Assembly (NCBI GenBank): GCA_964587125.1
Contig: CAZPKC010000001.1
Span: 14,872 to 78,871, forward strand
Length of the DNA stretch: 64,000 nt
Direction: 5' to 3'
Origin: an uncultured Rhodospirillaceae bacterium
GTDB taxonomy: Bacteria > Pseudomonadota > Alphaproteobacteria > UBA9219
The translations under genes were made by a program, and so were the position numbers. Positions within the stretch are counted from its first letter, which is position 1. The number at the start of each line of letters is the position of its first letter. Of this stretch, positions 1 through 62,828 are shown one piece after another. The notes under the pieces are model-generated. The model did no database searches. It was not told the DNA's origin and saw nothing but the letters and a program-made list of their open reading frames with translations.

Positions 1-863
1 AAAGGCGTGCTGTTGAGATAATCGAGGATGATTTTTTTCCGCGCTTCGCGCGTGTCGGGACCGTCGAGATAGACGCGGAAAGAGGCCGAGGCTATCTGGC
101 GCAATTTTTCCAAGGCGCTGCCGGTTTTTCCCTGAGGCGAGAAGCGGAATTTTTCGATCTGCGTCGCGAGCGTGCTGCCGCCGCCCGCGTTAGCGCCCGG
201 GACAAAAACATGCGCGGCTTGCCCAAAAATGGCGGAAAATAAGCGTCCCCATTCGATAACGGGATTGCGCGTGACGGGGCCGTCTTTCAGCAATTCGCGG
301 TTTTCGATGTAAAGCAGCGTCTCGACGAGCAGCGGAGGAATTTGGTCGAAGCCGGAGAAAATGTGTTGGGGGTACGACGCTGCGTAGATTTTCTCGCCGT
401 TTTTATCGAAGAGCGTCAGTCCCGCCTCCGTTTTGGGGCGGTAGATGGGATAGAGCCCGCGCCGGAGCAGCGTGTCGTAAGCATCGGACGCGTGCATCTG
501 CGCTTGAACCGTGAAAGCGTCGGCTTGCAGCGCCTTGATGTAAAAAGGCAGATAGCTGTAGCCCAACCTTTCGTTATAGGGGCCAGATTTGGGCGTGCGC
601 ATATGCGGGTTCGCGCCTTGCTGCATCGAGAAGAAAAGACGCTGGTCGTACGAGGAAAATCCTTTGGCCTGAACCTCGGACGTGCGCACTTCGTTATTCA
701 TGAGGCTCGCGACGATCACGCAAAGGCACAGAAGTATCGCCGAAGAGAAAATCCAGAGCAGTTCGCTTTTCCAGGACGGCTCTTTTTTCTTCCGCCGGGG
801 ATGTTTGGCTGGCGCAGGCGCGGCTTTTTTTGCGACCTTTTTTATGTCTTTAGAATGTCGCAC
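1..863 (-). CDS. Peptidoglycan glycosyltransferase (GT51) domain protein, PBP1-type or monofunctional; N-terminal part only, gene continues past the left edge
   Basis: Not in the ORF track because no stop lies in the window. Manual reverse-strand translation from ~863 downward gives a basic cytoplasmic tail ([20 protein letters not shown]), a hydrophobic TM helix ([20 protein letters not shown]), then GT51-like motifs ([36 protein letters not shown]). No in-frame ATG precedes the TM helix, so a GTG start at 863-861 is likely; this overlaps the hisS stop by about 20 nt. Confidence 0.5.
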
Positions 864-2197
864 AGCTTTCCAATCAGTTCGGCGCGGAGAACTTCTGTTT
901 GCGTTTTGGAGAACATGTCTTTGACAAGGACGACGCCTTTGGCTTGTTCGTCATGCCCCAAGAGTATAACCACGGGAATGCCCGATTTATCGGCGTATTT
1001 GATCTGCTTGTCGAGCTTGGCGGGTTCGAGCCACGTTTCGACGCGGAATCCTTTCGCGCGCAATTCCGTCGCAAGCGGAAGCGTATAAGCCTGCAATTGC
1101 GGATCGAGTTGGGCGATGAGGATTTGAACCGTCGGCGGCACCGATTTTATGAAATCGTTCAACAATCCGTTCGCGTTCAGTTGGTCGAAAAGGCGCGTGA
1201 GGCCGATGGAAATCCCCACGCCCGGAAGTTTCGATTTCGTATAGTGACCAGCGAGGTCGTCGTAGCGACCGCCGGAACAGACGCTGCCGAATTCTGGATG
1301 CGCGCCGATGTATGTTTCGTAAACGGTTCCCGTGTAATAATCGAGGCCGCGCGCGATAGCGAGATTGAGCCGCGTGCGATTTTCGGGAACGCCGAGAGCG
1401 CGCAAGGCATCGACCGTTTGCGTAACTTCGGCCAATCCTTGCTTGAAGACGGGATCGTCGATCGACAACGCGTTCAGCGACGCCAGAATCTCGTTTTTGT
1501 CGCCCCGATGCGCGATCAGGCGCAGCAAATTCTCGGCATTCGGGCCGGATGCCCCCAGATTTTCTATTTCTTCGCGCACTTTGGCCGCGCCGATTTTGTC
1601 GAGCTTGTCGATTTCGCGTAAAATCAGTTTTTGCTTTTCGTCGTCCTTGATGCCGTATCCGGATAAAATTCCGCGCAGGATTTTCCGGTTGCTGAAGTGG
1701 ATCGTGAAATCGCCGACTTTCAGTTCTTCGAAAATTTGCACGATGATCGCGGGAAGTTCGGCGTCAAAGGCGGGACTGAGCTTATCCTTACCGATGACGT
1801 CGATGTCGCATTGGGCAAATTCGCGGAAGCGTCCGCGCTGCGCGCGCTCCCCCCGATAGACGCGCTGCATCTGATAGCGGCGGAAAGGAAAAGCCAGTTC
1901 GCGCTCGTGCTCGGCCACGTAACGCGCGAGAGGAACCGTGAGGTCGAAACGCAAAGCGAGATCGGCGGCGTTTCCCTGCTGCATATCTCCCGTCGATTGG
2001 ACAAAATAAACCTGCTTTTCGGTTTCTCCGCCCGATTTGGTGAGCAGAACGTCTTTCAGTTCAAAAACCGGCGTCTCGATAGGAATAAATCCGAATTTTT
2101 CGAAGCCTTTGCGGATAACATCGGACATATGCTGGAAAATTCTTTGCTCACGGGGAAGAAGTTCCAGAGTTCCGGAAGGAGTGCGCGGGGTGATCAT
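842..2197 (-). CDS. hisS: Histidine--tRNA ligase
   Basis: 451 aa ORF with class II aaRS HisRS signatures (PSGTLELLP near N-term, [19 protein letters not shown]). Confidence 0.9.
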
Positions 2198-2285: not shown

Positions 2286-2984
2286 TCACGGCGTCAGACG
2301 GAAGACAAAATCCACGGTGTTTACCGCGAGATTGCATGCCGTTTTGGCCGACGCGAGGTCCCAAGGGAGGGTAAGCGCCGGAACGTGGCTAACCCTTCCT
2401 GTTCCGTTGATATAAACATCGACGAGGCCGGGCAATGCGGTGGGGTTGGAATTTCTAAGCGCAGCCCCGATGCAAGCGTTTCCCGAAGGCAGCAAGGCTT
2501 CGATGGCGAACAGGGGAACGCTCGCGGTACTGGTGGCCGCAGTAAAAGCGCACCCCGTGCTGCCTGTGGCTTTCCATCCGCATACATAAAGCGAATTGTA
2601 GGGGGTGCCCGCAGCCGGAAGGCCTGTGGTGGATTGTTCGCCGAACGGCGAATCTACGACCGAAACGCCCCCGCTGACATGGACAGCATCGCCCGGAAAA
2701 ACGTTGAGAGAGGTCAAGATGGGCATCATCCCCGTCACGGCGCCTACCGTCGGGGTCAAGGTCGTATCGAAATAGGTCTTGCCGACGTAATTTCCGCGGA
2801 TATTTCCGACGATGACATTCAGCATCTCGGAAAATTTTTCTTGTTTGGCGTTGCTGTTTATGTTCGAGGCCAAGGCCCAAACGCCGGAAAGGATTATTCC
2901 GGCAACGCCCAAAACAATGGCAAACTCGGTCAGGCTGAATCCGCGTTTACGTTTGCGTTGCGTTTGGGTCTGTTTCGGATTCAT
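2286..2984 (-). CDS. Type IV (IVb-like) pilin / prepilin-type N-terminal cleavage-methylation domain protein
   Basis: N-terminus [15 protein letters not shown]|[19 protein letters not shown] has a basic leader, Gly-Phe cleavage site, Glu at +5 and a hydrophobic helix, as in type IV pilins. The mature part is Gly/Thr/Ser-rich with 4 Cys. It lies immediately downstream of mreB. Confidence 0.6.
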
Positions 2985-2998
2985 TCCGTTTACCTGAC

Positions 2999-4045
<1,047 letters not shown>

Positions 4046-4267
4046 TTATTACCTACGGCAAGGGAGATTCGTTGCGCAAAGATTGAGAGGAACTTTCTGA
4101 CACCGGAACGTGTTTTTCGCAAGAGGTATCTTGGGGGTGTTTTTTTCCGTGGAAATATTTGGAAAACGGCAGCGTCATGGAATCATCTTATAAATGCCGC
4201 GCCTGATTTTCCATTCCCACCGGAGAAAATTAATCATGAAGACGCGCCGCACTTATTGATAGATATG

Positions 4268-4320
4268 GATGAAAGTATTTTGACCTGTTGACAAAACGAC
4301 ATGAATAACCATGAATAACC
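4268..4320 (+). promoter_or_regulatory. Conserved upstream element copy 1: ATGAAAGTATT block plus TTGACA (-35-like, 4288-4293), followed by tandem direct repeat ATGAATAACC x2 (4301-4320)
   Basis: Shares the ATGAAAGTATT..TTGACA block with 5751-5776 and 6647-6670. A perfect 10-bp tandem repeat follows. It sits ~110 nt upstream of the 4378 start codon. Confidence 0.45.
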
Positions 4321-4377
4321 TTCATGAAGTAATATTTAATTCCCAATTAATAATGGGAGAGTAAGGAGACTGTCATT

Positions 4378-4743
4378 ATGTTATTTGTTGCGCCCGTTCA
4401 AGTTGCGCCCGTTCAAGAAATCCGCGCCCCTGAAATAAAATCAGAAAAGCACCTTCCTGAAAATAACGGAAAGAAAAATCTTCCCCCTGTTCCGCGCAGA
4501 TCGGATTATGCCCGTTTGCAACCTCCAAAGAAGGAACAAGCACTCGTGCAAAAAACCGACACAGGAAGGCGCGGCAAGGCAGAAGATTATTTATATCGTC
4601 CGGAACATCCGTATCACCCCCAAAAAGACAGAACGAGTCCTCTCGCGGAATTAAGCCGTCTCCCAAGAAAAGACCGTACCAACCGGAGGACTCGGGCCAA
4701 AGTCGAAAATTATCTTCGGCAGAAAAGCCTGACCCGTTCTTGA
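4378..4743 (+). CDS. Hypothetical protein (121 aa), basic and Pro/Lys/Arg-rich, low complexity
   Basis: ORF with AAGGAG RBS 8 nt upstream. No recognisable domain. Lower GC than neighbours. Preceded by the CCCAATTAATAATGGG motif. Confidence 0.5.
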   Translation: MLFVAPVQVAPVQEIRAPEIKSEKHLPENNGKKNLPPVPRRSDYARLQPPKKEQALVQKTDTGRRGKAEDYLYRPEHPYHPQKDRTSPLAELSRLPRKDRTNRRTRAKVENYLRQKSLTRS

Positions 4744-4814
4744 TTTAAAACGGGCAAAACGGCGATTTAAGAAATTCGAAAATCCCAATAAATATGGAAA
4801 TTGAGGAGTACATT

Positions 4815-5729
4815 ATGAATAAGACTATTAGCAATCAGGCTTTACACGGGGATTGTCCATCTGCAGACTCTCCCTTCTGGTATGCCCCTGAAATTCTGCC
4901 TGCAAAATACGACGAAGAAGAAGTAAAGGAAGCTTCTCCCGAAGCCCCCAAAGGCAGAAAACATATCCTTCTGGAACACGACAGCGAAGCGGCTCCTCAC
5001 GTTTCTAACTTGTCGAATATCGCCGCCCTCCGCTGGGACATACGCTCTTTCTCCGACATAGACGCGGTTGTCTGCGCGGTATACATCCCCTCCGATCCGG
5101 ACGCTTCGGATGCATCGTCCGATCTTGAGGATGATCCTCTCGATGAGAAAAATCTTCAGGATGATTCTCTCGATGAGGAAGACACGGACCCCCAGGCCCC
5201 GCCCAAAAAGGAACATTACGGTTTTTCCAGCGCAGAGATAAAACAGATTCACGCGCTCAAAAAGATTCTTGAACTGAGCGATCATGCAAACAGTCTCCTT
5301 TCAAAACCGACGGACGAACAAATTGAAATCCCCGGTAATTTCATTCCCGATCATGCAACAAGAATCCCCAACGAAATGATGGGATATGATCTTGCCGAAG
5401 CTGGATTTACCGCTGCGAGCCTTAATATGCTCAAAGACAAAAGCCCTCAGGCGTATAAGCGCCTCGCCTGTTTAATGGATTTCGGCAGGCAAAAATTGTT
5501 GGAAGAGAAGAGGGTCAGAGCCAGCAAACTCGCCGCTGAACAAGCGCGGCGTTACGGCGGCAGAAGTTATGGCCCTGTCGTTCCTGACGCACAAATGCGG
5601 TCCTACAGGGCGTTGAGAAAACTTCCCGCTCCTTCGTCGGGCGCATCAAGAGATTTGGATTCTCTCTTTCCGAAAGGTTTTTCGGCTGATTTAGAGTCGA
5701 GAAGGCCTCAAAAGATATATTCATTATGA
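4815..5729 (+). CDS. Hypothetical protein (~304 aa), strongly acidic and Asp/Glu/Ser-rich, with an internal ~30-nt tandem repeat
   Basis: ORF 4794..5729. The ATG at 4815 is preferred because GAGGAG lies 6 nt upstream, and the 4794 ATG sits inside the CCCAATAAATATGG motif. No recognisable domain. Confidence 0.5.
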   Translation: MNKTISNQALHGDCPSADSPFWYAPEILPAKYDEEEVKEASPEAPKGRKHILLEHDSEAAPHVSNLSNIAALRWDIRSFSDIDAVVCAVYIPSDPDASDASSDLEDDPLDEKNLQDDSLDEEDTDPQAPPKKEHYGFSSAEIKQIHALKKILELSDHANSLLSKPTDEQIEIPGNFIPDHATRIPNEMMGYDLAEAGFTAASLNMLKDKSPQAYKRLACLMDFGRQKLLEEKRVRASKLAAEQARRYGGRSYGPVVPDAQMRSYRALRKLPAPSSGASRDLDSLFPKGFSADLESRRPQKIYSL

Positions 5730-5783
5730 ATAATGTCTTCAATATATACGCATGAAAGTATTAGACTCGCTTGACAAAATGCC
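5716..5783 (+). promoter_or_regulatory. Conserved upstream element copy 2: 17-bp palindrome TTATTCATTATGAATAA-like (5716-5734), ATGAAAGTATT (5752-5762), TTGACA (5771-5776)
   Basis: A ~68-bp block about 94% identical to 6611-6677. The palindrome tattcat-t-atgaata is perfect. It lies ~100 nt upstream of the 5853 start codon. Confidence 0.5.
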
Positions 5784-5852
5784 GCCGATAAACAAATATT
5801 TTTTCATAAATGAACACTAGTGCCCAATAAATATGGGAAGAAGGAGCTTATT

Positions 5853-6533
5853 ATGGTTGAGTCAGTTGTTTTGGATAATGGGTCGGACGTTTCTCATTCT
5901 GATAGACTTACCTTGCTATATAAAATGAAAGATCTGCGCGCTCTGGGCGGATCCGTTGATCCCGTGAAAGATCACAACATAAAATCTAAAGACATTACCA
6001 AAGTTAAAATCGAGTCGGGGAAAGATGTGCCGGAATCTTTCGTTTCCATAACCTATATCCCGCGTAAATCGACCCTCGTTTCCCGTACATACAACGTATT
6101 GAATCATGTGGCCGACGAAACGACTGGCGATGAGCCTGTTGATGCGGTTCAAAGAATTGCCGAAAAGAATGCCGAGACTGAAAAGAGGATTCTTGAGACG
6201 GAAGAAGATATCAATACTTATCCCAAAAAAGAATCGATCGTTGGAAAAGACCCGGAAAAGTGGGTTAAGAAAGACGGGCGCTATGTCCTTCTTAATAAGA
6301 GGGAAGAAGTCCCGCACGAAAATGGGGATGAATACACGCCCGATAAGCTCCGTCGCATGAAGCTCGACCTCGCCAACAAAAGGTTCGCAAAAAATAATCC
6401 TTGCGGAACATCCGATGATTTCAATCTTGGCGCCGCAAGCGAAGAGATAAGGAGCATCCCGACGTTGGATGGATCGGAACGTCCCGTTCCCGAGTTCCTA
6501 TTTGTCGCTTCGGTCAGATCCCAGCAACTATAA
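5853..6533 (+). CDS. Hypothetical protein (~226 aa)
   Basis: ORF 5820(GTG)..6533. The ATG at 5853 is preferred because AAGGAG lies 6 nt upstream. Preceded by the CCCAATAAATATGGG motif. No recognisable domain. Confidence 0.5.
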   Translation: MVESVVLDNGSDVSHSDRLTLLYKMKDLRALGGSVDPVKDHNIKSKDITKVKIESGKDVPESFVSITYIPRKSTLVSRTYNVLNHVADETTGDEPVDAVQRIAEKNAETEKRILETEEDINTYPKKESIVGKDPEKWVKKDGRYVLLNKREEVPHENGDEYTPDKLRRMKLDLANKRFAKNNPCGTSDDFNLGAASEEIRSIPTLDGSERPVPEFLFVASVRSQQL

Positions 6534-6610
6534 AAGCCGATAAGGCGTTTACGGACAAGCTTGATTCGGACGACGCTGAAGTTACGCGTTAAGTTGGTAT
6601 ATGCGCGGGG

Positions 6611-6677
6611 TTATTCATTATGAATAATGTCTTCAATATATACCCATGAAAGCATTAGACTCGCTTGACAGAAGGCC
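6611..6677 (+). promoter_or_regulatory. Conserved upstream element copy 3: palindrome TTATTCATTATGAATAA (6611-6627), ATGAAAGCATT, TTGACA (6665-6670)
   Basis: Near-identical to 5716-5783. It lies ~100 nt upstream of the 6746 start codon. Confidence 0.5.
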
Positions 6678-6745
6678 TTTTTATTAAGAAAGTTATAGCG
6701 ATTAATTTAAATAGTCGTTGCAGATAAAATATGGGGAAAAACGTT

Positions 6746-7132
6746 ATGAAGCCATACAAGTTGGGCAAAGGATTGCCGGATGAAGTCAGGCATGCGGAAA
6801 TTGCCGCCGTTTACGATGAAATATTTTTTAGCAGGCTTGAAAATGAGGGCGTTTTTCCCGCATCGGGATATCCTCAATATTCCGCCGAGCTTCCTCCGGA
6901 AATTACAAATTTCAAACTCCCCTCCGGAAAAGATAAAAAGGCCAAGGCGATCGACACCTATGAGGAAATGCTCGATAGAAACGAGGATGTTGTTTTTCCC
7001 CACGTTAAGTCTCAAACAAGGGAGCTTCCCAAAAAAATTACTTACATTCCTTCTGTTCCTTCCGTTCCTCAAAAGGGGATGACTTTGGGAGACATGCTGA
7101 TAACGAAAGTTAGCCAGTACTTACATTTGTAA
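6746..7132 (+). CDS. Hypothetical protein (~128 aa)
   Basis: ORF 6731..7132. An alternative ATG at 6746 has GGGGA 7 nt upstream. Preceded by the AGATAAAATATGGGG motif. No recognisable domain. Confidence 0.45.
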   Translation: MKPYKLGKGLPDEVRHAEIAAVYDEIFFSRLENEGVFPASGYPQYSAELPPEITNFKLPSGKDKKAKAIDTYEEMLDRNEDVVFPHVKSQTRELPKKITYIPSVPSVPQKGMTLGDMLITKVSQYLHL

Positions 7133-7173
7133 GTAAGACGGAACACAATCGCTTTTTCCTTCGGGCTTCGGCC

Positions 7174-7890
7174 TTACGACGACAACGCCGTTTTTTGCAA
7201 AGCCGCCAGTTCGGCGATGCCTTTTTGCGCGAGACGTAAAAGCGCGTTGAATTGGGATTCGGAAAAAGGCTCCTGCTCCGCCGTGCTTTGAATCTCGACG
7301 ATGCCCCCTGCCCCCGTCAGGACAAAATTCGCGTCGACTTCGGCGTTTGAATCCTCGGCGTAATCGAGATCAAGAACGGGCTCGCCCCTGTAAAGACCGC
7401 AGGAAACAGCCGCGACCGAAGTCGTCAACGGGTTCGCCGTCAAGCGCCCCGTTTTCATCAGATAGCGGCACGCCAATCCCAAGGCAACATATCCGCCCGT
7501 GATCGATGCCGTTCGCGTGCCTCCGTCGGCTTGCAAAACGTCGCAATCGACTTTGATCTGGATTTCGCCCAGAATTTTTCTATCGACCACTGCGCGCAGG
7601 CTGCGCCCAATCAGGCGCTGGATTTCCTGCGTGCGTCCCGATTGTTTGCCTTTGGCCGCTTCGCGGTCGGTGCGTTCCGCCGTCGCGCGCGGAAGCATGC
7701 CGTATTCGGCAGTGACCCAACCCAATCCTGAATTGCGCAAAAAGGGCGGAACTTTTTCATCGACGCTCGCGGTGCACAGCACGTGCGTGTCGCCGAATTT
7801 CACAAGACACGATCCTTCGGCATATTTTGAAAATCCAGGTTCGAGAAAAACGGAACGCATTTGGTCGGAAGACCGGCGGGAGGGGCGCAT
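7174..7890 (-). CDS. rph: Ribonuclease PH
   Basis: The C-terminal 238 aa of the 289-aa ORF align by eye with RNase PH ([14 protein letters not shown]..., [24 protein letters not shown]). The upstream 51 codons are probably a non-coding extension. Confidence 0.9.
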
Positions 7891-8057
7891 GAAAAGACCT
7901 GAGGTTCGGGGTTTCAAATTTGAAGATTTGTTAGCACATTCCGCGCCTAAAGGAGCAAACAATGTTTTTTGCGCTCTAGCGGCAAAAATCCGGTTTGTGT
8001 TTTCGGCGGAAGAAAGTAGGCTCTTTTTAATTCTTTTCGTCACGCTCGGAGCCGCAC

Positions 8058-8873
8058 ATGAAGCATTTTCATCTGGCGTTGCAGGGATTTCTTACCGTCG
8101 TTCTGGTTGCGCTCGTGGCGCTGGCGTTTCCGGCGCTTATCGGAAAAACTCAGGAACTCGCGGGTTCGAAAAACGAAGAAGCGTCGCTGCCGACAGTCAG
8201 CGTTTTGTTCCTCGGCAACAGCTATACTTACGTCAACGATCTGCCGGGGATGGTCGGACAAATCGCGTCGTCCGATCCGAACTGCCGCGTGAAACTCGCC
8301 GTTCAGTCGGTGACGCGCGGCAGCGCGCGTCTCAAGGATTTATGGGACGACGGCAAGGCGTTGAAGGTTTTGCGTTCAGAGCCGTGGGATTTCGTCGTGC
8401 TTCAGGAACAAAGCCTGTGGGCCTTGAGCGGCGAACAAATCAAGATCACATTTGATGCGGCTGCCGACTGGAACAGGGAAATACTTAAAGCGTCCGGGCA
8501 TACCGTTCTTTACGGAACTTGGGCGAGGCAGGCGGGGAGTTCGTGGTACAGCGACAAGGAATATCAGGCTTGGAATTTGAAAGACGCCGACACGATGCAA
8601 CGCGCCCTCGACACTCGCACGCGCGAACTGGCGGAACGTTTGGGCGCATCCGCCATTTATGTCGGCGATGCTTGGGACAAGGCGCAGAAATTGCCGTCAC
8701 CGCCCGTTTTGTTCGCCTCGGACGGCAGTCATCCAAGCCCTGCCGGAACTTATTTGGCGGCGTTGCTTTTTTATCGCCATTTTACGGGGAGCAAACTCGA
8801 TTCCGTCCGCTTTATTCCTTCCGGCGTGACGCCGGAGCAAGCCAGAGAACTTGTCGCTCTGGCGGCGGAATAG
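8058..8873 (+). CDS. SGNH/GDSL-type hydrolase family protein with N-terminal signal/TM segment
   Basis: LFLGNSYTY (GNS block) and DGSHPS (catalytic Asp/His block) are typical of the SGNH fold. An N-terminal hydrophobic segment is present. Confidence 0.5.
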
Positions 8874-19456: not shown

Positions 19457-19857
19457 GCCAGACGGTCGGATGATCGCCTACCGCTTTCTTGAGCGGTAGG
19501 AGGAAAGTCCGGGCTTCGGGGGAAAAGGGCGCCGGATAACGTCCGGTTGGGGCGACCCAAAGGAAAGTGCCACAGAAAATAAACTACCCGTTCATTTGAG
19601 CGGGAAAAGGTGAAAAGGTGCGGTAAGAGCGCACCGCGTTTTTGGTAACAGAAACGGCACGGAAAACCCCGCCCGAAGCAAAACCGAATAGGAGCCGCAT
19701 AGCGCATATCTGGTCTTCGGATCATAGATGCGCGGCGTTTTCCCCGCGCGCGGTTCGGGTTGGTTGCTTGAGGCGTTCGGCAACGAACGTCCTAGATGAA
19801 TGATCGTCCGCCGCATGAAAGTGCGGCGACAAAACCCGGCTTATAGACCGTCTGGCA
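19457..19857 (+). ncRNA. rnpB: RNase P RNA (bacterial type A)
   Basis: Universal GGAGGAAAGTCCGGGCT (P4) segment. The P1 helix is formed by GCCAGACGGTC (5') pairing with GACCGTCTGGC (3'). ACAGAAA and GGTAAGAGCGCACC elements are present. Confidence 0.85.
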
Positions 19858-19991
19858 ATTTTTTATAATGAACGGTTCCTTGTTTAGCGCGCAAGATGGA
19901 TTGAAAAACAATTCTCTTTGAAAAAGCCGGCAGAGGACATTAAACATGCGATGTCAGTCTGGCCCTCTCATAATGAAATCGGCCCCGCGTC

Positions 19992-52342: not shown

Positions 52343-52430
52343 CATAGGGAGCGGGATTCGAACCCGCGATACCGTCGCCGGTATATCCTGTTTTCAGTAG
52401 GACGCCTTAAACCACTCGCGCCATCCCTCC
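52343..52430 (-). tRNA. Aberrant class-II tRNA (Ser-type body: long variable arm, G73) with anticodon loop CUGAAAA (GAA) and no encoded CCA; probable pseudogene
   Basis: Minus strand: GGAGGGA-TG-GCGC..GGCGT-(T)CCTA-CUGAAAA-CAGGA-variable arm TATACCGGCGACGGTATC-GCGGG-TTCGAAT-CCCGC-TCCCTAT-G. Acceptor has a G2.A71 mismatch. The anticodon stem is 4 bp plus A31.C39, or alternatively a 9-nt loop. Confidence 0.5.
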
Positions 52431-52983
52431 AAAGGTGAACCAAAAGGGCATCCCGTTTCCGGGATGCCCTTCAGTTCTCAGAACAGCCTACCGATGGTCA
52501 GGCAGCTGAAGCCATTTTGGATAGAACTTCCACCCAAAGCCCAGACCGAACCTAAAACCGGTCGACTGGCTGGCTTCGAGACAAAAAAATGCACACAACA
52601 TGTACATCTCCGTTGCTCGTGTGCGGGGTCCCTTACGGTAGCCGACTCGCACATAAGGCCAGCAGTGGGGTCAGTTGATTTTAGCCTGATTGGTCGACCC
52701 CGACACGCCTCGGCTATTTCGTTGTGATGTGAGATAGGGAGTGTGGGGTCGCGTTTCAAGACCTTACGCCACCAAAAAATGCAGGGCACAAAACCAAAAT
52801 GCAAGATCGGCGATGATTCTCAACGAATGAGCCAATAATTATGGAAAATGTGAGAAAAACAGCCCTTTCCGTATCTTTCGGGAAGGGCCGTTTTCTTGCG
52901 GCATTTTGCCTTTGCCGTGATTCCCCGGTGATTCCCGGAGCACTTTCCAGAAAAGCAAGACTTCTGGAAAGTGCAGTAAATAT

Positions 52984-53060
52984 TGGCGGACCCGGCGAGA
53001 TTCGAACTCGCAACCTTTGCCTTCGGAGGGCAGCGCTCTATCCAGTTGAACTACGGGTCC
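52984..53060 (-). tRNA. tRNA-Arg (anticodon CCG), CCA encoded
   Basis: Perfect cloverleaf: acceptor GGACCCG/CGGGTCC, D-loop AACTGGATA, anticodon loop CUCCGAA, T-loop TTCGAAT, G73, CCA. Confidence 0.9.
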
Positions 53061-61498: not shown

Positions 61499-61573
<75 letters not shown>

Positions 61574-61640
61574 ACTTTTTCAAGCACTTAGCGTATAGCT
61601 AATTTGCGCCAAATCGCCTTTGTGCGTGTCTCCGTGCGTG

Positions 61641-62828
61641 TTAAAAAGTTAATTTGCCGATATTTGGTTTGGCAATCATCCTTTTTGCCGGTGCTTTTGG
61701 CGCAACCTCAATATCTCTCTCGCTCCTTCCTTCAAGAGCGTGCTTTGCTTCCATCAAGAATGTCGGGTTGTGGTGCGCGTATATGCGCTCCGTTGTCCGG
61801 GTACTGGTATGGCCGAGATATTTTGAGATAACCCACATCGGCACGTTTGCTTGCGCCATCCACGTTGCCGCTGTGTGGCGTAGCGTATGCGGCGTTACGT
61901 CACTAAGGCCAGCATCCCGCGCAACGCGGCGGAAGCTCTGGTCTATGCGTAAGATCGGCTTTCCAAAATATTCAATCACGTATTTATCGGCGCAATTTTC
62001 CGGAGCACGGCTTTTGGCAATCCGCAAGAAGGTCATGAGTCTGCTCGGTATCGGAACAATGGCACGGCGTTTGTTGGTTATCTTGCTTCCCGCTTTGTTA
62101 AGATCAATAACGCCTCTTTCGAGATCGACTTGTGACCACGTGAGGGTAAGAAGAGCCTCCTTTCGCGCGGCGGTATAAAGAGCCAACAGGATAAAAAATG
62201 ACAGGTGCCAACGAGCGTATGAATGAAAGCGCACCTGTCCTGTCTTGGGGTCAATACGACGCTTGGAACGGGTTGCTTTTAATAGGCGCACAACCTCGTC
62301 ACGAGTCAGCCAACGGTCTTTAGGGGCCGTTGGTGCTGGTTTCCAGATCGGCACCGCTGAGGCCAGCCGCCCTTGCTTGTAATCATGGCGAATGGCCGCG
62401 CCTAACACGCCCAATTCACGCGCAATCAACCCATCGGAAGCGTTTTTCCCTGCTTTAGCGGCTGTTTCACGCCTATATTGAGCATATTGGCGGCACAGTA
62501 CCGGCCTTACGTCAGAAACCGGCCTATGACCCCAAAAAGGGATAAGAGATTTAATATTGTTGCCTGAAGCTTCTTGGCTGACTGTATGGATCAAGTGCTC
62601 TTCTGCATAAGCCGCCAGAACGTCAGCTATGATTCGTTTGGTGGAGCTGACAATATCGACCGGTTGGTCTTTTTCGACGTTATGCTTGCTGAGTTCTTGG
62701 TCAGCCTCGATGCGATTTCGAGTGCCCGTTGATTTCTTACGTTCGCGTCCGCCTTCGTACCAATATATGTACCAACAGTCACGTGCTTCGAGCCACTTGA
62801 GGTAGGCTCCTTTATTGCATTTTGACAT
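61641..62828 (-). CDS. Tyrosine-type site-specific integrase (phage integrase family)
   Basis: C-terminal catalytic block HTLRHTAATWM...LGHTSTRTTERIYAH with R..H..R..Y residues. N-terminal arm-binding-like region. Confidence 0.85.
   Translation of the reverse strand: MSKCNKGAYLKWLEARDCWYIYWYEGGRERKKSTGTRNRIEADQELSKHNVEKDQPVDIVSSTKRIIADVLAAYAEEHLIHTVSQEASGNNIKSLIPFWGHRPVSDVRPVLCRQYAQYRRETAAKAGKNASDGLIARELGVLGAAIRHDYKQGRLASAVPIWKPAPTAPKDRWLTRDEVVRLLKATRSKRRIDPKTGQVRFHSYARWHLSFFILLALYTAARKEALLTLTWSQVDLERGVIDLNKAGSKITNKRRAIVPIPSRLMTFLRIAKSRAPENCADKYVIEYFGKPILRIDQSFRRVARDAGLSDVTPHTLRHTAATWMAQANVPMWVISKYLGHTSTRTTERIYAHHNPTFLMEAKHALEGRSERDIEVAPKAPAKRMIAKPNIGKLTF

What the first reader, a model, noticed from the sequence alone, without database searches (positions are those of the whole stretch)
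4240..7140. Four consecutive low-GC orphan genes between mreB and rph, each behind a shared composite upstream element (candidate co-regulated cassette, possibly secreted or effector-like proteins)
Genes at 4378, 4815, 5853 and 6746 encode proteins with no recognisable domain. One is basic and Pro-rich, one is strongly acidic with an internal repeat, two are plain orphans. Their GC looks about 10 points below the flanking core genes. Each is preceded by the same architecture. Motif M1 (ATGAAAGTATT then TTGACA ~9 nt later) is at 4269-4293, 5752-5776 and 6647-6670, always ~100-110 nt before the start codon. Motif M2 (CCCAAT[A/T]AATATGG[G]) is 15-35 nt before the start at 4344-4358, 4784-4797, 5824-5837 and 6723-6737. 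A 17-bp perfect palindrome TTATTCATTATGAATAA sits 5' of M1 in two copies (5716-5734, 6611-6627). In the third copy the same half-site appears as a 10-bp tandem direct repeat ATGAATAACC x2 (4301-4320) 3' of the TTGACA. Blocks 5716-5783 and 6611-6677 are ~94% identical over 68 bp. Palindrome versus direct-repeat arrangements of one half-site suggest a dimeric or response-regulator-type DNA-binding protein. A dedicated regulon of accessory proteins in a flagellated alphaproteobacterium is the kind of arrangement seen for host-interaction effectors.
Basis: seen in the sequence. Interest (0 to 1): 0.8.

Follow-up and report, generated by a model that had tools for sequence, protein, structure and literature searches.

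The report
Duplicated promoter modules driving orphan genes
Four fast-evolving genes with no database homologues sit next to the cell-shape gene mreB in an uncultured alphaproteobacterium, each behind a copy of one promoter-and-leader module that related species keep at the same spot, so the shared motifs are real and probably co-regulate the genes, but nothing points to a wider regulon or to secreted effectors.

Summary
M1 (ATGAAAGYATT-N8-TTGACA) occurs three times with no mismatch and nowhere else in the 64 kb. M2 (CCCAATAAATATGG) precedes all four start codons, in a degenerate form at g4. A 66-nt block is 94% identical upstream of g3 and g4. The four ORFs have GC3 of 0.42-0.49 against 0.63-0.72 in neighbouring genes and match only themselves in the protein databases.

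Seven related MAG species keep rph-[variable]-mreB-pilin-hisS synteny, with an interval of 89 to 3131 bp. Most carry M1, a TTGAC -35 and an M2 homologue about 48 nt further on, in front of different small ORFs beside mreB. Neither motif appears elsewhere in about 330 kb of DNA from this clade.

So this is one ancestral, mreB-divergent promoter-plus-leader module. Here it has multiplied in tandem with fast-diverging ORFs: g3 and g4 are remote homologues of an ORF in a relative. The g3/g4 promoter pair fits the published "putative mobile promoter" doublet definition.

The ATGAATAA palindrome and direct repeat are not conserved in relatives. A dispersed regulon, a specific regulator type and secretion are all unsupported. 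Local co-regulation is plausible. The function of the proteins is unknown.

The parts
2999..4042 (-). mreB, the conserved left flank, transcribed away from the cassette
   Evidence: Pfam MreB_Mbl on the called gene. It is 94-99% identical in amino acids in relatives.
4043..4140 (-). Conserved mreB promoter/leader block; not part of the modules but it bounds them
   Evidence: It aligns across 8 loci while the flanks do not. No consensus RNA structure was found.
4269..4293 (+). Module 1 promoter: M1 (4269-4279), 8 nt, then the -35-like TTGACA (4288-4293)
   Evidence: Exact pattern match. Orthologous copies lie beside mreB in L004, L007, L011 and L012.
4301..4320 (+). Tandem 10-bp repeat ATGAATAACC x2 between the -35 and M2 of module 1
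   Evidence: Seen. It is not present at the aligned position in the closest relative, L004.
4342..4357 (+). M2 of module 1 (CCCAATTAATAATGGG). It starts 48 nt after the -35 and is followed by the SD AAGGAG at 4363-4368.
   Evidence: A short hairpin is predicted, dG -6.4 and z -4.5 against shuffles.
4378..4743 (+). g1: a 121-aa basic (pI 10.5), Pro-rich ORFan
   Evidence: Only a self hit among 1.84e9 representative proteins. No family match. Composition.
4784..4797 (+). M2 of module 2, in the 71-nt g1-g2 spacer. No intact M1 or -35 lies upstream, only TTGATT at 4740-4745.
   Evidence: Exact match. Alignment. There is no M1 HMM hit here.
4815..5729 (+). g2: a 304-aa acidic ORFan (311 aa if started at the M2 ATG at 4794) with an internal repeat at 5122-5180
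   Evidence: Only a self hit among 5.8e9 proteins. AF2 mean pLDDT 44.5. Repeat.
5718..5783 (+). 66-nt repeat copy A. It holds the palindrome (5717-5733, overlapping the g2 stop codon), M1 (5752-5762) and the -35 TTGACA (5771-5776). The candidate -10 AATATT lies at 5795-5800.
   Evidence: It is the only module that passes the sigma-70 consensus scan.
5823..5837 (+). M2 of module 3 (CCCAATAAATATGGG), starting 46 nt after the -35 and followed by the SD AAGGAG
   Evidence: Hairpin dG -4.3, z -3.2.
5853..6533 (+). g3: a 226-aa ORFan
   Evidence: Only a self hit. AF2 mean pLDDT 35.8. Remote homologue of ORF L011b, Smith-Waterman z=7.1.
6612..6677 (+). 66-nt repeat copy B, 94% identical to copy A. 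It holds the palindrome (6611-6627), M1 (6646-6656) and the -35 TTGACA (6665-6670).
   Evidence: An independent Logan assembly breaks at this repeat.
6720..6736 (+). Degenerate M2 of module 4 (GCAGATAAAATATGGGG), starting 49 nt after the -35. Its G-run is the only SD-like sequence before g4.
   Evidence: No hairpin is predicted.
6746..7132 (+). g4: a 128-aa ORFan (133 aa if started at 6731), convergent with rph
   Evidence: Only a self hit. Weak homology to L011b, which is also the rph-proximal ORF in its genome (z=4.3).
7174..7860 (-). rph, the conserved right flank
   Evidence: Pfam RNase_PH. It is 70-90% identical in relatives.

Best explanation
The cassette is a tandem array of four copies of one ancestral expression module. 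That module sits divergently upstream of mreB in this uncultured alphaproteobacterial clade.

Each intact module (P1, P3, P4) has three parts:
- a sigma-70-type promoter whose near-consensus -35 is TTGACA;
- a conserved element, M1, exactly 8 bp upstream of the -35. Inferred role: an activator or alpha-CTD contact site that compensates for weak -10 hexamers;
- M2, 46-50 nt downstream of the -35, just 5' of the ribosome-binding site. Inferred role: a small C-rich/G-rich stem-loop in the mRNA leader, at or next to the Shine-Dalgarno sequence.

g1 and g2 are probably co-transcribed from P1. g3 and g4 have their own promoters.

The downstream ORFs are real, hydrophilic proteins that give no confident structure prediction, are lineage-specific and diverge extremely fast. 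g3 and g4 look like diverged duplicates of an ancestor that also survives as an ORF in a relative. The 94%-identical 66-nt block of P3 and P4 reflects recent duplication or a short gene-conversion tract. It is a 'propagated promoter' doublet, not a mobile element.

Shown: the motifs, their fixed spacing, their conservation at the orthologous site, their absence elsewhere in the sampled DNA, and the ORFan status.
Inferred: promoter activity, the RNA-level role of M2, the operon structure and the duplication history. What the proteins do is unknown.
For: Motif statistics and exclusivity. The M1 HMM scores the known sites at 17-23 bits and everything else in about 330 kb at 10 bits or less.

Synteny: rph-[89 to 3131 bp]-mreB-pilin-hisS is kept in L007, L011, L012, L014, L017 and L066; L004 keeps mreB-pilin-hisS but its contig ends before rph.

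Anchored alignment: M1-N8-TTGAC is invariant in spacing. A C-run/M2 homologue starts 46-50 nt after the -35 in P1, P3, P4, L004, L007, L011a, L012 and L066. The spacer sequence itself is only about 40% identical even to the closest relative. For comparison, mreB 4-fold degenerate sites are 46-68% identical among the six close relatives.

M2 without a promoter: M2 is retained, and is identical to that of g3, in the g1-g2 spacer, which lacks M1 and a -35. This argues for an RNA-level role.

Hairpin: a short hairpin more stable than shuffles is predicted in 5 of 9 modules, and more weakly in L066. In L007, L012 and L066 its 3' arm is the SD.

Coding evidence: the ORFs are 121-304 codons long in 45% GC DNA with SDs 7-9 nt upstream. 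GC1>GC2 matches the pattern of the core genes. In-frame CAI exceeds the off-frame values for g2-g4.

Homology among the ORFs: g3-L011b z=7.1, g4-L011b z=4.3, L007a-L012a z=10.6.

Fit to a known kind: the P3/P4 block meets the published PMP criteria of 50-100 nt at >=80% identity within 150 nt of the start of non-homologous CDSs. The reported doublets average 92% identity and 66 nt (PMC3488235).
Against: - Only P3 has a -10 that passes a simple sigma-70 scan, and no transcription start is known.
- Only about 64 kb of this genome could be searched, so copies elsewhere cannot be excluded.
- The M2 hairpin is only 4-5 bp. It is absent in P2, P4 and L011a, and M2 could instead be a DNA operator.
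- g1 has a higher CAI in an off frame.
- g3 and g4 show no direct significant similarity to each other (z=1.1), so the duplication history rests on a third sequence.
- The ATGAATAA half-site is locally enriched, with 6 of the 7 window copies in the cassette, and this model does not explain it.
Confidence: 0.6

Rival explanations
1. The four genes belong to a dedicated regulon of secreted or effector-like proteins. A dimeric or response-regulator-type transcription factor controls them by binding ATGAATAA half-sites, as a palindrome in P3 and P4 and as a direct repeat in P1.
For: - ATGAATAA occurs 7 times in 64 kb and 6 of those are in the 2.9-kb cassette, against 2.0 expected for the whole window.
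- The palindrome has a 15-17 bp perfect core in two copies.
- The direct repeat has a 10-bp period.
- fliQ/fliR/flhB-type export genes are in the window.
- The proteins have no recognisable domain and give no confident structure prediction.
Against: - Neither the palindrome nor the direct repeat is present in the orthologous promoters of relatives. The P1 repeat aligns to non-repeated sequence in the closest relative.
- The two arrangements lie on opposite sides of the -35.
- The two palindromes are copies of one duplication, and one ATGAATAA is simply the g2 start codon context.
- No M1 or M2 site lies upstream of any other gene in about 330 kb.
- There is no signal peptide and no secretion evidence.
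Confidence: 0.15
2. The interval is a hotspot where foreign DNA has repeatedly inserted. On this view g1-g4 are horizontally acquired genes that happen to sit between rph and mreB.
For: - GC3 is about 20 points below that of the core genes.
- Interval length varies from 89 to 3131 bp among relatives.
- None of the four genes has a homologue in the protein databases.
Against: - The promoter/leader module in front of the ORFs is itself conserved at the orthologous position, so insertions would have to land precisely behind it each time.
- There is no integrase, transposase, tRNA or flanking repeat in 4043-7173.
- No phage family or viral contig matches.
- g3 and g4 have a remote homologue in the same interval of L011, which suggests vertical descent.
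Confidence: 0.12
3. M1 and TTGAC primarily serve mreB, for example as an upstream regulator site of the divergent mreB promoter. On this view the ORFs are incidental or non-coding.
For: - M1 lies 170-260 nt upstream of the mreB start codon in every relative that has it.
- The ORFs are ORFans with low CAI.
- g1 scores better in an off frame.
- AF2 gives no confident fold.
Against: - Two further exact M1-TTGACA copies lie 1.7 and 2.6 kb from mreB. Each is about 100 nt upstream of an ORF start and in the ORF's orientation.
- The ORFs are up to 304 codons long, with well-placed SDs and a GC1>GC2 coding signature.
- There is protein-level similarity between species.
Confidence: 0.08
4. The 66-nt block is a copy of a dispersed non-autonomous mobile repeat (MITE- or REP-like) and has nothing to do with transcription.
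For: The block is a sharply bounded 66-nt repeat at 94% identity with a palindrome at one end.
Against: - There are only two copies, both in this locus and both at the same distance from a start codon.
- No other copy exists in the window or in relatives.
- The block has no terminal inverted repeats and no target-site duplication.
- Its core, M1-N8-TTGACA, is an ancestral element of the locus that relatives share.
Confidence: 0.03

Closest known systems
Putative mobile promoters / promoter propagation (Matus-Garcia et al., Nucleic Acids Res 2012, PMC3488235)
   Same: A 66-nt stretch at 94% identity lies within 150 nt upstream of two non-homologous CDSs of one genome. It is not an IS or an Rfam element. 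Its size and identity match the reported typical doublet, which averages 66 nt and 92%.
   Different: The copies are adjacent in one tandem array rather than spread over the genome. A diverged version is conserved at the orthologous site in other species. A second conserved element, M2, lies in the leader.
Regulons of orphan effector genes with a shared upstream repeat, such as the PmrA- or CpxR-controlled Dot/Icm effectors of Legionella and Coxiella (recalled from general knowledge, not tested here)
   Same: Several domain-less, low-GC, lineage-specific genes share a cis element near the -35. One promoter carries a 10-bp-period direct repeat.
   Different: No dispersed set of target genes was found. 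The repeat is not conserved. No dedicated secretion system or regulator was identified, and nothing shows secretion.
Tandemly duplicated, fast-evolving lineage-specific gene families
   Same: The locus expands from 89 bp to 3.1 kb among relatives. Each unit repeats the same promoter, leader and 'TTATG' start context. Only remote protein similarity remains (g3 and g4 to L011b).
   Different: The regulatory part is far better conserved than the coding part, which is the reverse of the usual pattern for paralogues.
Shine-Dalgarno-sequestering leader hairpins (translational control elements such as RNA thermometers)
   Same: In L007, L012 and L066 a C/U-rich tract can pair with the GGAGG SD across an A/U-rich loop. 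The tract sits at a fixed distance from the promoter.
   Different: The stem is only 4-5 bp. In the window's P1 and P3 it pairs with a GGGA just upstream of the real SD. No Rfam family matches and compensatory evidence is thin.

Membership tests
Putative mobile promoter (PMP) doublet | A stretch of 50-100 nt at >=80% identity shared by two upstream regions | tested here: met
   5718-5783 against 6612-6677 is 66 nt at 94% identity. Criteria taken from PMC3488235.
Putative mobile promoter (PMP) doublet | [quoted passage not shown] | tested here: met
   The blocks span -135..-70 relative to the g3 ATG (5853) and -134..-69 relative to the g4 ATG (6746).
Putative mobile promoter (PMP) doublet | Downstream CDSs are not homologous by ordinary sequence search | tested here: met
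   g3 against g4: the best BLASTP hit is 12 aa at E=0.055, and Smith-Waterman z=1.1. A common remote relative, L011b, hints at very old homology.
Putative mobile promoter (PMP) doublet | Not a known IS element or riboswitch | tested here: met
   No Rfam match at E<=1. No transposase or other family in the interval. ISfinder itself was not available.
Sigma-70-type promoter | -35 hexamer close to TTGACA | tested here: met
   TTGACA is exact in P1, P3 and P4. Relatives have TTGAC[A/G/T].
Sigma-70-type promoter | -10 hexamer (A at position 2, T at position 6, at least 4 of 6 matches) 16-18 nt downstream | tested here: inconclusive
   Only P3 passes, with TTGACA-18-AATATT at 10 of 12 matches. P1 and P4 do not. 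No transcription-start data exist.
Transcription-factor regulon (effector-type) | The same motif upstream of several unlinked genes | tested here: not met
   M1 and M2 are found only in the mreB-rph interval, across the 64-kb window, 7 kb of flank and about 250 kb from relatives. The rest of the genome could not be searched.
Transcription-factor regulon (effector-type) | Proposed operator (ATGAATAA palindrome or direct repeat) conserved in orthologous promoters | tested here: not met
   It is absent from the L004, L007, L011, L012, L014 and L066 modules.
Transcription-factor regulon (effector-type) | Products carry secretion signals or are shown to be secreted | not testable with these tools
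   By eye there is no N-terminal hydrophobic signal sequence. No predictor for T3SS or T4SS signals was available.
MITE / dispersed repeat | Multiple dispersed copies with terminal inverted repeats and target-site duplication | tested here: not met
   There are two copies only, both in this locus. The block has a palindrome at one end only and no terminal inverted repeats or target-site duplication.
Integron gene-cassette array | Adjacent integron integrase and an attC site after each ORF | tested here: not met
   No integrase lies in or next to 4043-7173. The nearest tyrosine recombinase is at 61641-62828. Each unit carries a promoter rather than an attC-like 3' element.
Known cis-regulatory RNA family (Rfam) | A covariance-model match | tested here: not met
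   0 matches at E<=1 in 3900-7400.
SD-sequestering leader hairpin | A stem that pairs the SD, conserved through compensatory changes | tested here: inconclusive
   Hairpins of -4.3 to -6.4 kcal/mol form in 6 of 9 modules and exceed shuffles (z -2.0 to -4.5) in 5. The SD is the 3' arm only in L007, L012 and L066. Arm sequences differ between lineages (CCCA/UGGG against CUCC/GGAG), but the alignment is ambiguous.

The most novel reading that the evidence does not exclude
The conserved mreB-divergent promoter-plus-leader module acts as a standing 'expression platform'. New protein-coding genes would be born behind it, or would diversify there at an extreme rate. On this reading the locus is a gene nursery that has grown from 89 bp to 3.1 kb within one clade, with regulatory DNA outliving the genes it drives. 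The products would be under arms-race selection, for example in prey or host interaction in this flagellated, pilin-bearing uncultured lineage.
Probability: 0.2. Interest if true: 0.7.

Novelty: new member of a known kind. Interest (0 to 1): 0.35.

Why it matters
The locus is a clean natural example of regulatory sequence being conserved while the proteins it drives turn over. The same promoter, at the same spacing to a leader element, fronts unrelated or barely related small ORFs in seven species, and it has multiplied in one of them. That makes it a convenient case for two questions: how ORFan genes arise and acquire expression signals in bacteria, and what the unknown factor that reads M1 is in an uncultured alphaproteobacterial clade. 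It does not at present reveal a new mechanism or a new class of effector.

Tried and rejected
- Metagenome scan with MreB, to gather more relatives. It was useless for footprinting.
- AlphaFold2 without an alignment for g2 and g3. Mean pLDDT was 44.5 and 35.8, so fold searches would have been meaningless and were not run.
- Pfam, PHROGs and NCBIfam on g1-g4 and on the relatives' ORFs: nothing.
- Rfam on the region: nothing.
- Full-module pattern in viral contigs: 0 hits.
- Six-frame search for a CsrA-like protein in the available DNA, to test whether M2's GGA motifs could be CsrA sites: none found. The idea stays untestable here.
- By-eye comparisons, recalled from memory and not database tests, gave no convincing fit. 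M1/TTGAC was compared with sigma-28 (TAAAGTTT-N11-GCCGATAA), sigma-54 (GG-N10-GC) and ECF-type promoters. A CtrA box (TTAA-N7-TTAA) occurs only in P1's M2. The palindrome was compared with Fur and ARG boxes.
- A 'decayed fourth M1' inside the 3' end of g1 (about 4714-4745) is suggested by one MAFFT alignment. The M1 HMM does not score it, so it is treated only as a hint.
- M2 as an independent -10 or as a conserved upstream ORF. No -35 lies at the right distance. The ATG inside M2 is in frame with the gene in g2, g4 and L066, out of frame in g3 and L012, and opens a 3-codon ORF in g1. No consistent peptide results.

Full report
ORIGIN AND SETTING. The window is the reverse complement of part of a 271,816-bp JGI metagenome contig (3300041809, Ga0455670_0000193). 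An independent Logan assembly (SRR6946416) carries the same DNA. On the called genes, mreB (2999-4042, -) and rph (7174-7860, -) carry the MreB_Mbl and RNase_PH families. fliQ/fliR/flhB-type export genes lie further along the window. The closest genomes are uncultured MAGs labelled Alphaproteobacteria, Rhodospirillaceae or (probably wrongly) Bdellovibrionales. Their HisRS is 63-81% identical and their MreB 86-99% identical to the window's.

- M1, ATGAAAGYATT-N8-TTGACA, occurs at 4269, 5752 and 6646 with no mismatch. No other site exists in 64 kb even at three mismatches, where 0.24 are expected. The spacer is 8 nt, not 9.
- M2 is exact at 4784 and 5823. It has one substitution and one extra base at 4342, and is degenerate at 6720.
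- The palindrome is perfect at 6611-6627 and has one outer mismatch at 5717-5733.
- The 10-bp tandem repeat at 4301-4320 is real.
- The repeat 5718-5783 / 6612-6677 is 66 nt at 94% identity.
- The four ORFs have GC 0.44-0.49 and GC3 0.42-0.49. Ten neighbouring genes have 0.53-0.59 and 0.63-0.72.
- g1 is basic and Pro-rich. g2 is acidic with an internal repeat.

THE ORFs ARE ORFans BUT LOOK LIKE GENES. g2, g3 and g4 hit only themselves among 5.8 billion proteins. g1 hits only itself in a full HMMER pass over 1.84 billion representatives. Pfam, PHROGs and NCBIfam give nothing. Single-sequence AlphaFold2 models are uninformative, with pLDDT 44.5 and 35.8.

Several features still support coding. 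The ORFs run 121-304 codons in 45% GC DNA. Shine-Dalgarno sequences lie 7-9 nt upstream of g1-g3. GC1>GC2 matches the core genes. In-frame CAI is better than off-frame CAI for g2-g4. g1 is the weakest case, because an off frame scores higher.

COMPARATIVE EVIDENCE CHANGES THE PICTURE. Six related species keep the order rph-[interval]-mreB-pilin-like-hisS. The interval is 89 bp in the most distant one (L017). It is 590, 633, 692, 1345 and 1928 bp in the others and 3131 bp here. A seventh relative, L004, keeps mreB-pilin-hisS, but its contig ends 501 bp upstream of mreB. tblastn finds no trace of g1-g4 in these intervals.

The upstream architecture, however, is there. GAAAGYATT-N8-TTGAC, at one mismatch or fewer, occurs in 2.1 Mb of fetched DNA only in these intervals: three times in the window and once each in L004, L007, L011 and L012. 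The single exception is a likely chance hit in a Chlamydiae locus. An HMM of the element scores the known sites at 17-23 bits and nothing else in about 330 kb of clade DNA above 10 bits. M2, at two edits or fewer, is likewise confined to the window's three good copies plus L004 and L066, with one chance-like site at 52831.

I anchored all modules on TTGAC. M1 keeps its 8-bp distance. A C-run that begins the M2 homologue starts 46-50 nt after the hexamer, and exactly 48 nt after it in P1, L004, L007, L012 and L066. The sequence in between is essentially random, at about 40% identity to the closest relative. For comparison, mreB four-fold degenerate sites are 46-68% identical among the six close relatives. 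M1, the -35 and M2 are therefore under purifying selection, and so is their spacing.

WHAT THE ELEMENTS MOST LIKELY ARE. TTGACA is a consensus sigma-70 -35. Only P3 has an acceptable -10 (TTGACA-18-AATATT). A conserved, G-containing element centred near -50 is therefore best read as a site for an activator or for the RNA polymerase alpha subunit. This is inference, because no transcription start is known.

M2 would lie at roughly +18 to +33 of the transcript, directly 5' of the SD. Two observations favour an RNA-level role:
- The M2 in front of g2 sits in a 71-nt intercistronic spacer with no M1 or -35, yet is identical to that of g3.
- The C-rich and G-rich arms can form a 4-5 bp stem over an A/U loop in six of nine modules. 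In five of them the stem is more stable than shuffles (z -2.0 to -4.5). In L007, L012 and L066 the 3' arm is the SD itself.

The stem is weak, it is missing in P2, P4 and L011a, and no Rfam family matches. A DNA operator remains possible.

HOW THE ARRAY AROSE. All four genes share the M2-SD-'TTATG' start context, which suggests four descendants of one unit. Permutation tests show that L011b, the rph-proximal ORF of L011, is a remote homologue of g3 (z=7.1) and weakly of g4 (z=4.3). The first ORFs of L007 and L012 are homologous to each other (z=10.6).

So the ORFs are not independent insertions. They are very fast-evolving relatives, and g3 and g4 are plausibly diverged duplicates. The 66-nt P3/P4 identity ends abruptly four bases after the -35, which fits a short gene-conversion or re-duplication tract. 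By the published criteria it is a typical 'putative mobile promoter' doublet: 50-100 nt, >=80% identity, within 150 nt of non-homologous CDSs, with reported doublets averaging 92% and 66 nt (PMC3488235).

ATGAATAA is indeed concentrated here, with 6 of the 7 window copies in the cassette. But two copies are the duplicated palindrome, two are a local tandem repeat, and one is the g2 start codon. None of these arrangements is present in the orthologous promoters of relatives. The P1 repeat aligns to non-repeated sequence in L004. They may be lineage-specific operators, but they do not define the conserved module.

No regulon is visible in the DNA that could be searched. No secretion signal, domain or structure supports 'effector'.

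LIMITS. Only about 64 kb of this genome and about 20 kb per relative could be examined. The one metagenome scan was wasted on saturated MreB hits. Promoter activity, the operon structure and the role of M2 are all inferred. The biochemical function of g1-g4 is unknown.

VERDICT. This is a real, selected cis-regulatory module that has been locally multiplied with fast-evolving ORFan genes. It is a new instance of promoter propagation and lineage-specific gene turnover, not a new kind of system. It is of moderate interest, mainly as a tractable case of regulatory DNA outliving the genes it drives.

Noticed in passing
window 4043-4140 (minus strand, upstream of mreB): A block of about 95 nt directly upstream of the mreB start codon is conserved in eight related loci, while the flanking DNA is unalignable. 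Its core is CTCTTGCGAAAAAGACGTTACGGTGYCAGAAAGTT. RNAalifold finds no structure, so it is probably the mreB promoter and leader.
   Followed up: partly
window 2286-2984 (-): mreB is followed not by mreC/mreD but by a 232-aa protein with a prepilin N-terminal methylation motif. The protein is conserved at 34-56% identity in the same position in relatives.
   Followed up: no
window 842-2197 (-), hisS: The HisRS of this clade is 55-61% identical to those of Luteimonas, Thermomonas and Ornithinimicrobium. That is closer than to several other alphaproteobacterial MAGs in the hit list (42-54%), which hints at an exchanged hisS type.
   Followed up: no
That is at the 66-nt repeat, so the repeat apparently breaks short-read assemblies.
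   Followed up: partly
window 61499-62828 and beyond: A tRNA gene (61499-61570, +) sits next to a phage-type integrase (61641-62828, -), followed by a SLFN/AlbA_2-domain gene. This may be an integrated island at the right edge of the window.
   Followed up: no
L011 interval, ORF L011b (132 aa, next to rph); L007 and L012 first ORFs: The species-specific small ORFs are not all unrelated. L011b is a remote homologue of g3 and g4. The first ORFs of L007 and L012 are homologous to each other at 30% identity, while MreB is about 97% identical. This implies very fast protein divergence at this locus.
   Followed up: partly
L007 interval (locus 6328-8255), opposite strand to the small ORF: In this relative the interval also holds a 399-aa ORF with an N-terminal hydrophobic segment and no family match. 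It is oriented like mreB and rph, so the hotspot accepts other gene content too.
   Followed up: no
window 52440-52985: A stretch of about 550 nt between two minus-strand tRNA genes (52343-52430 and 52987-53060) has no called gene and no Rfam match. The only M2-like site outside the cassette (52831) lies here and is probably chance.
   Followed up: no
window 19458-19859 (+): A bacterial class A RNase P RNA, a full-length Rfam match at 335 bits.
   Followed up: no
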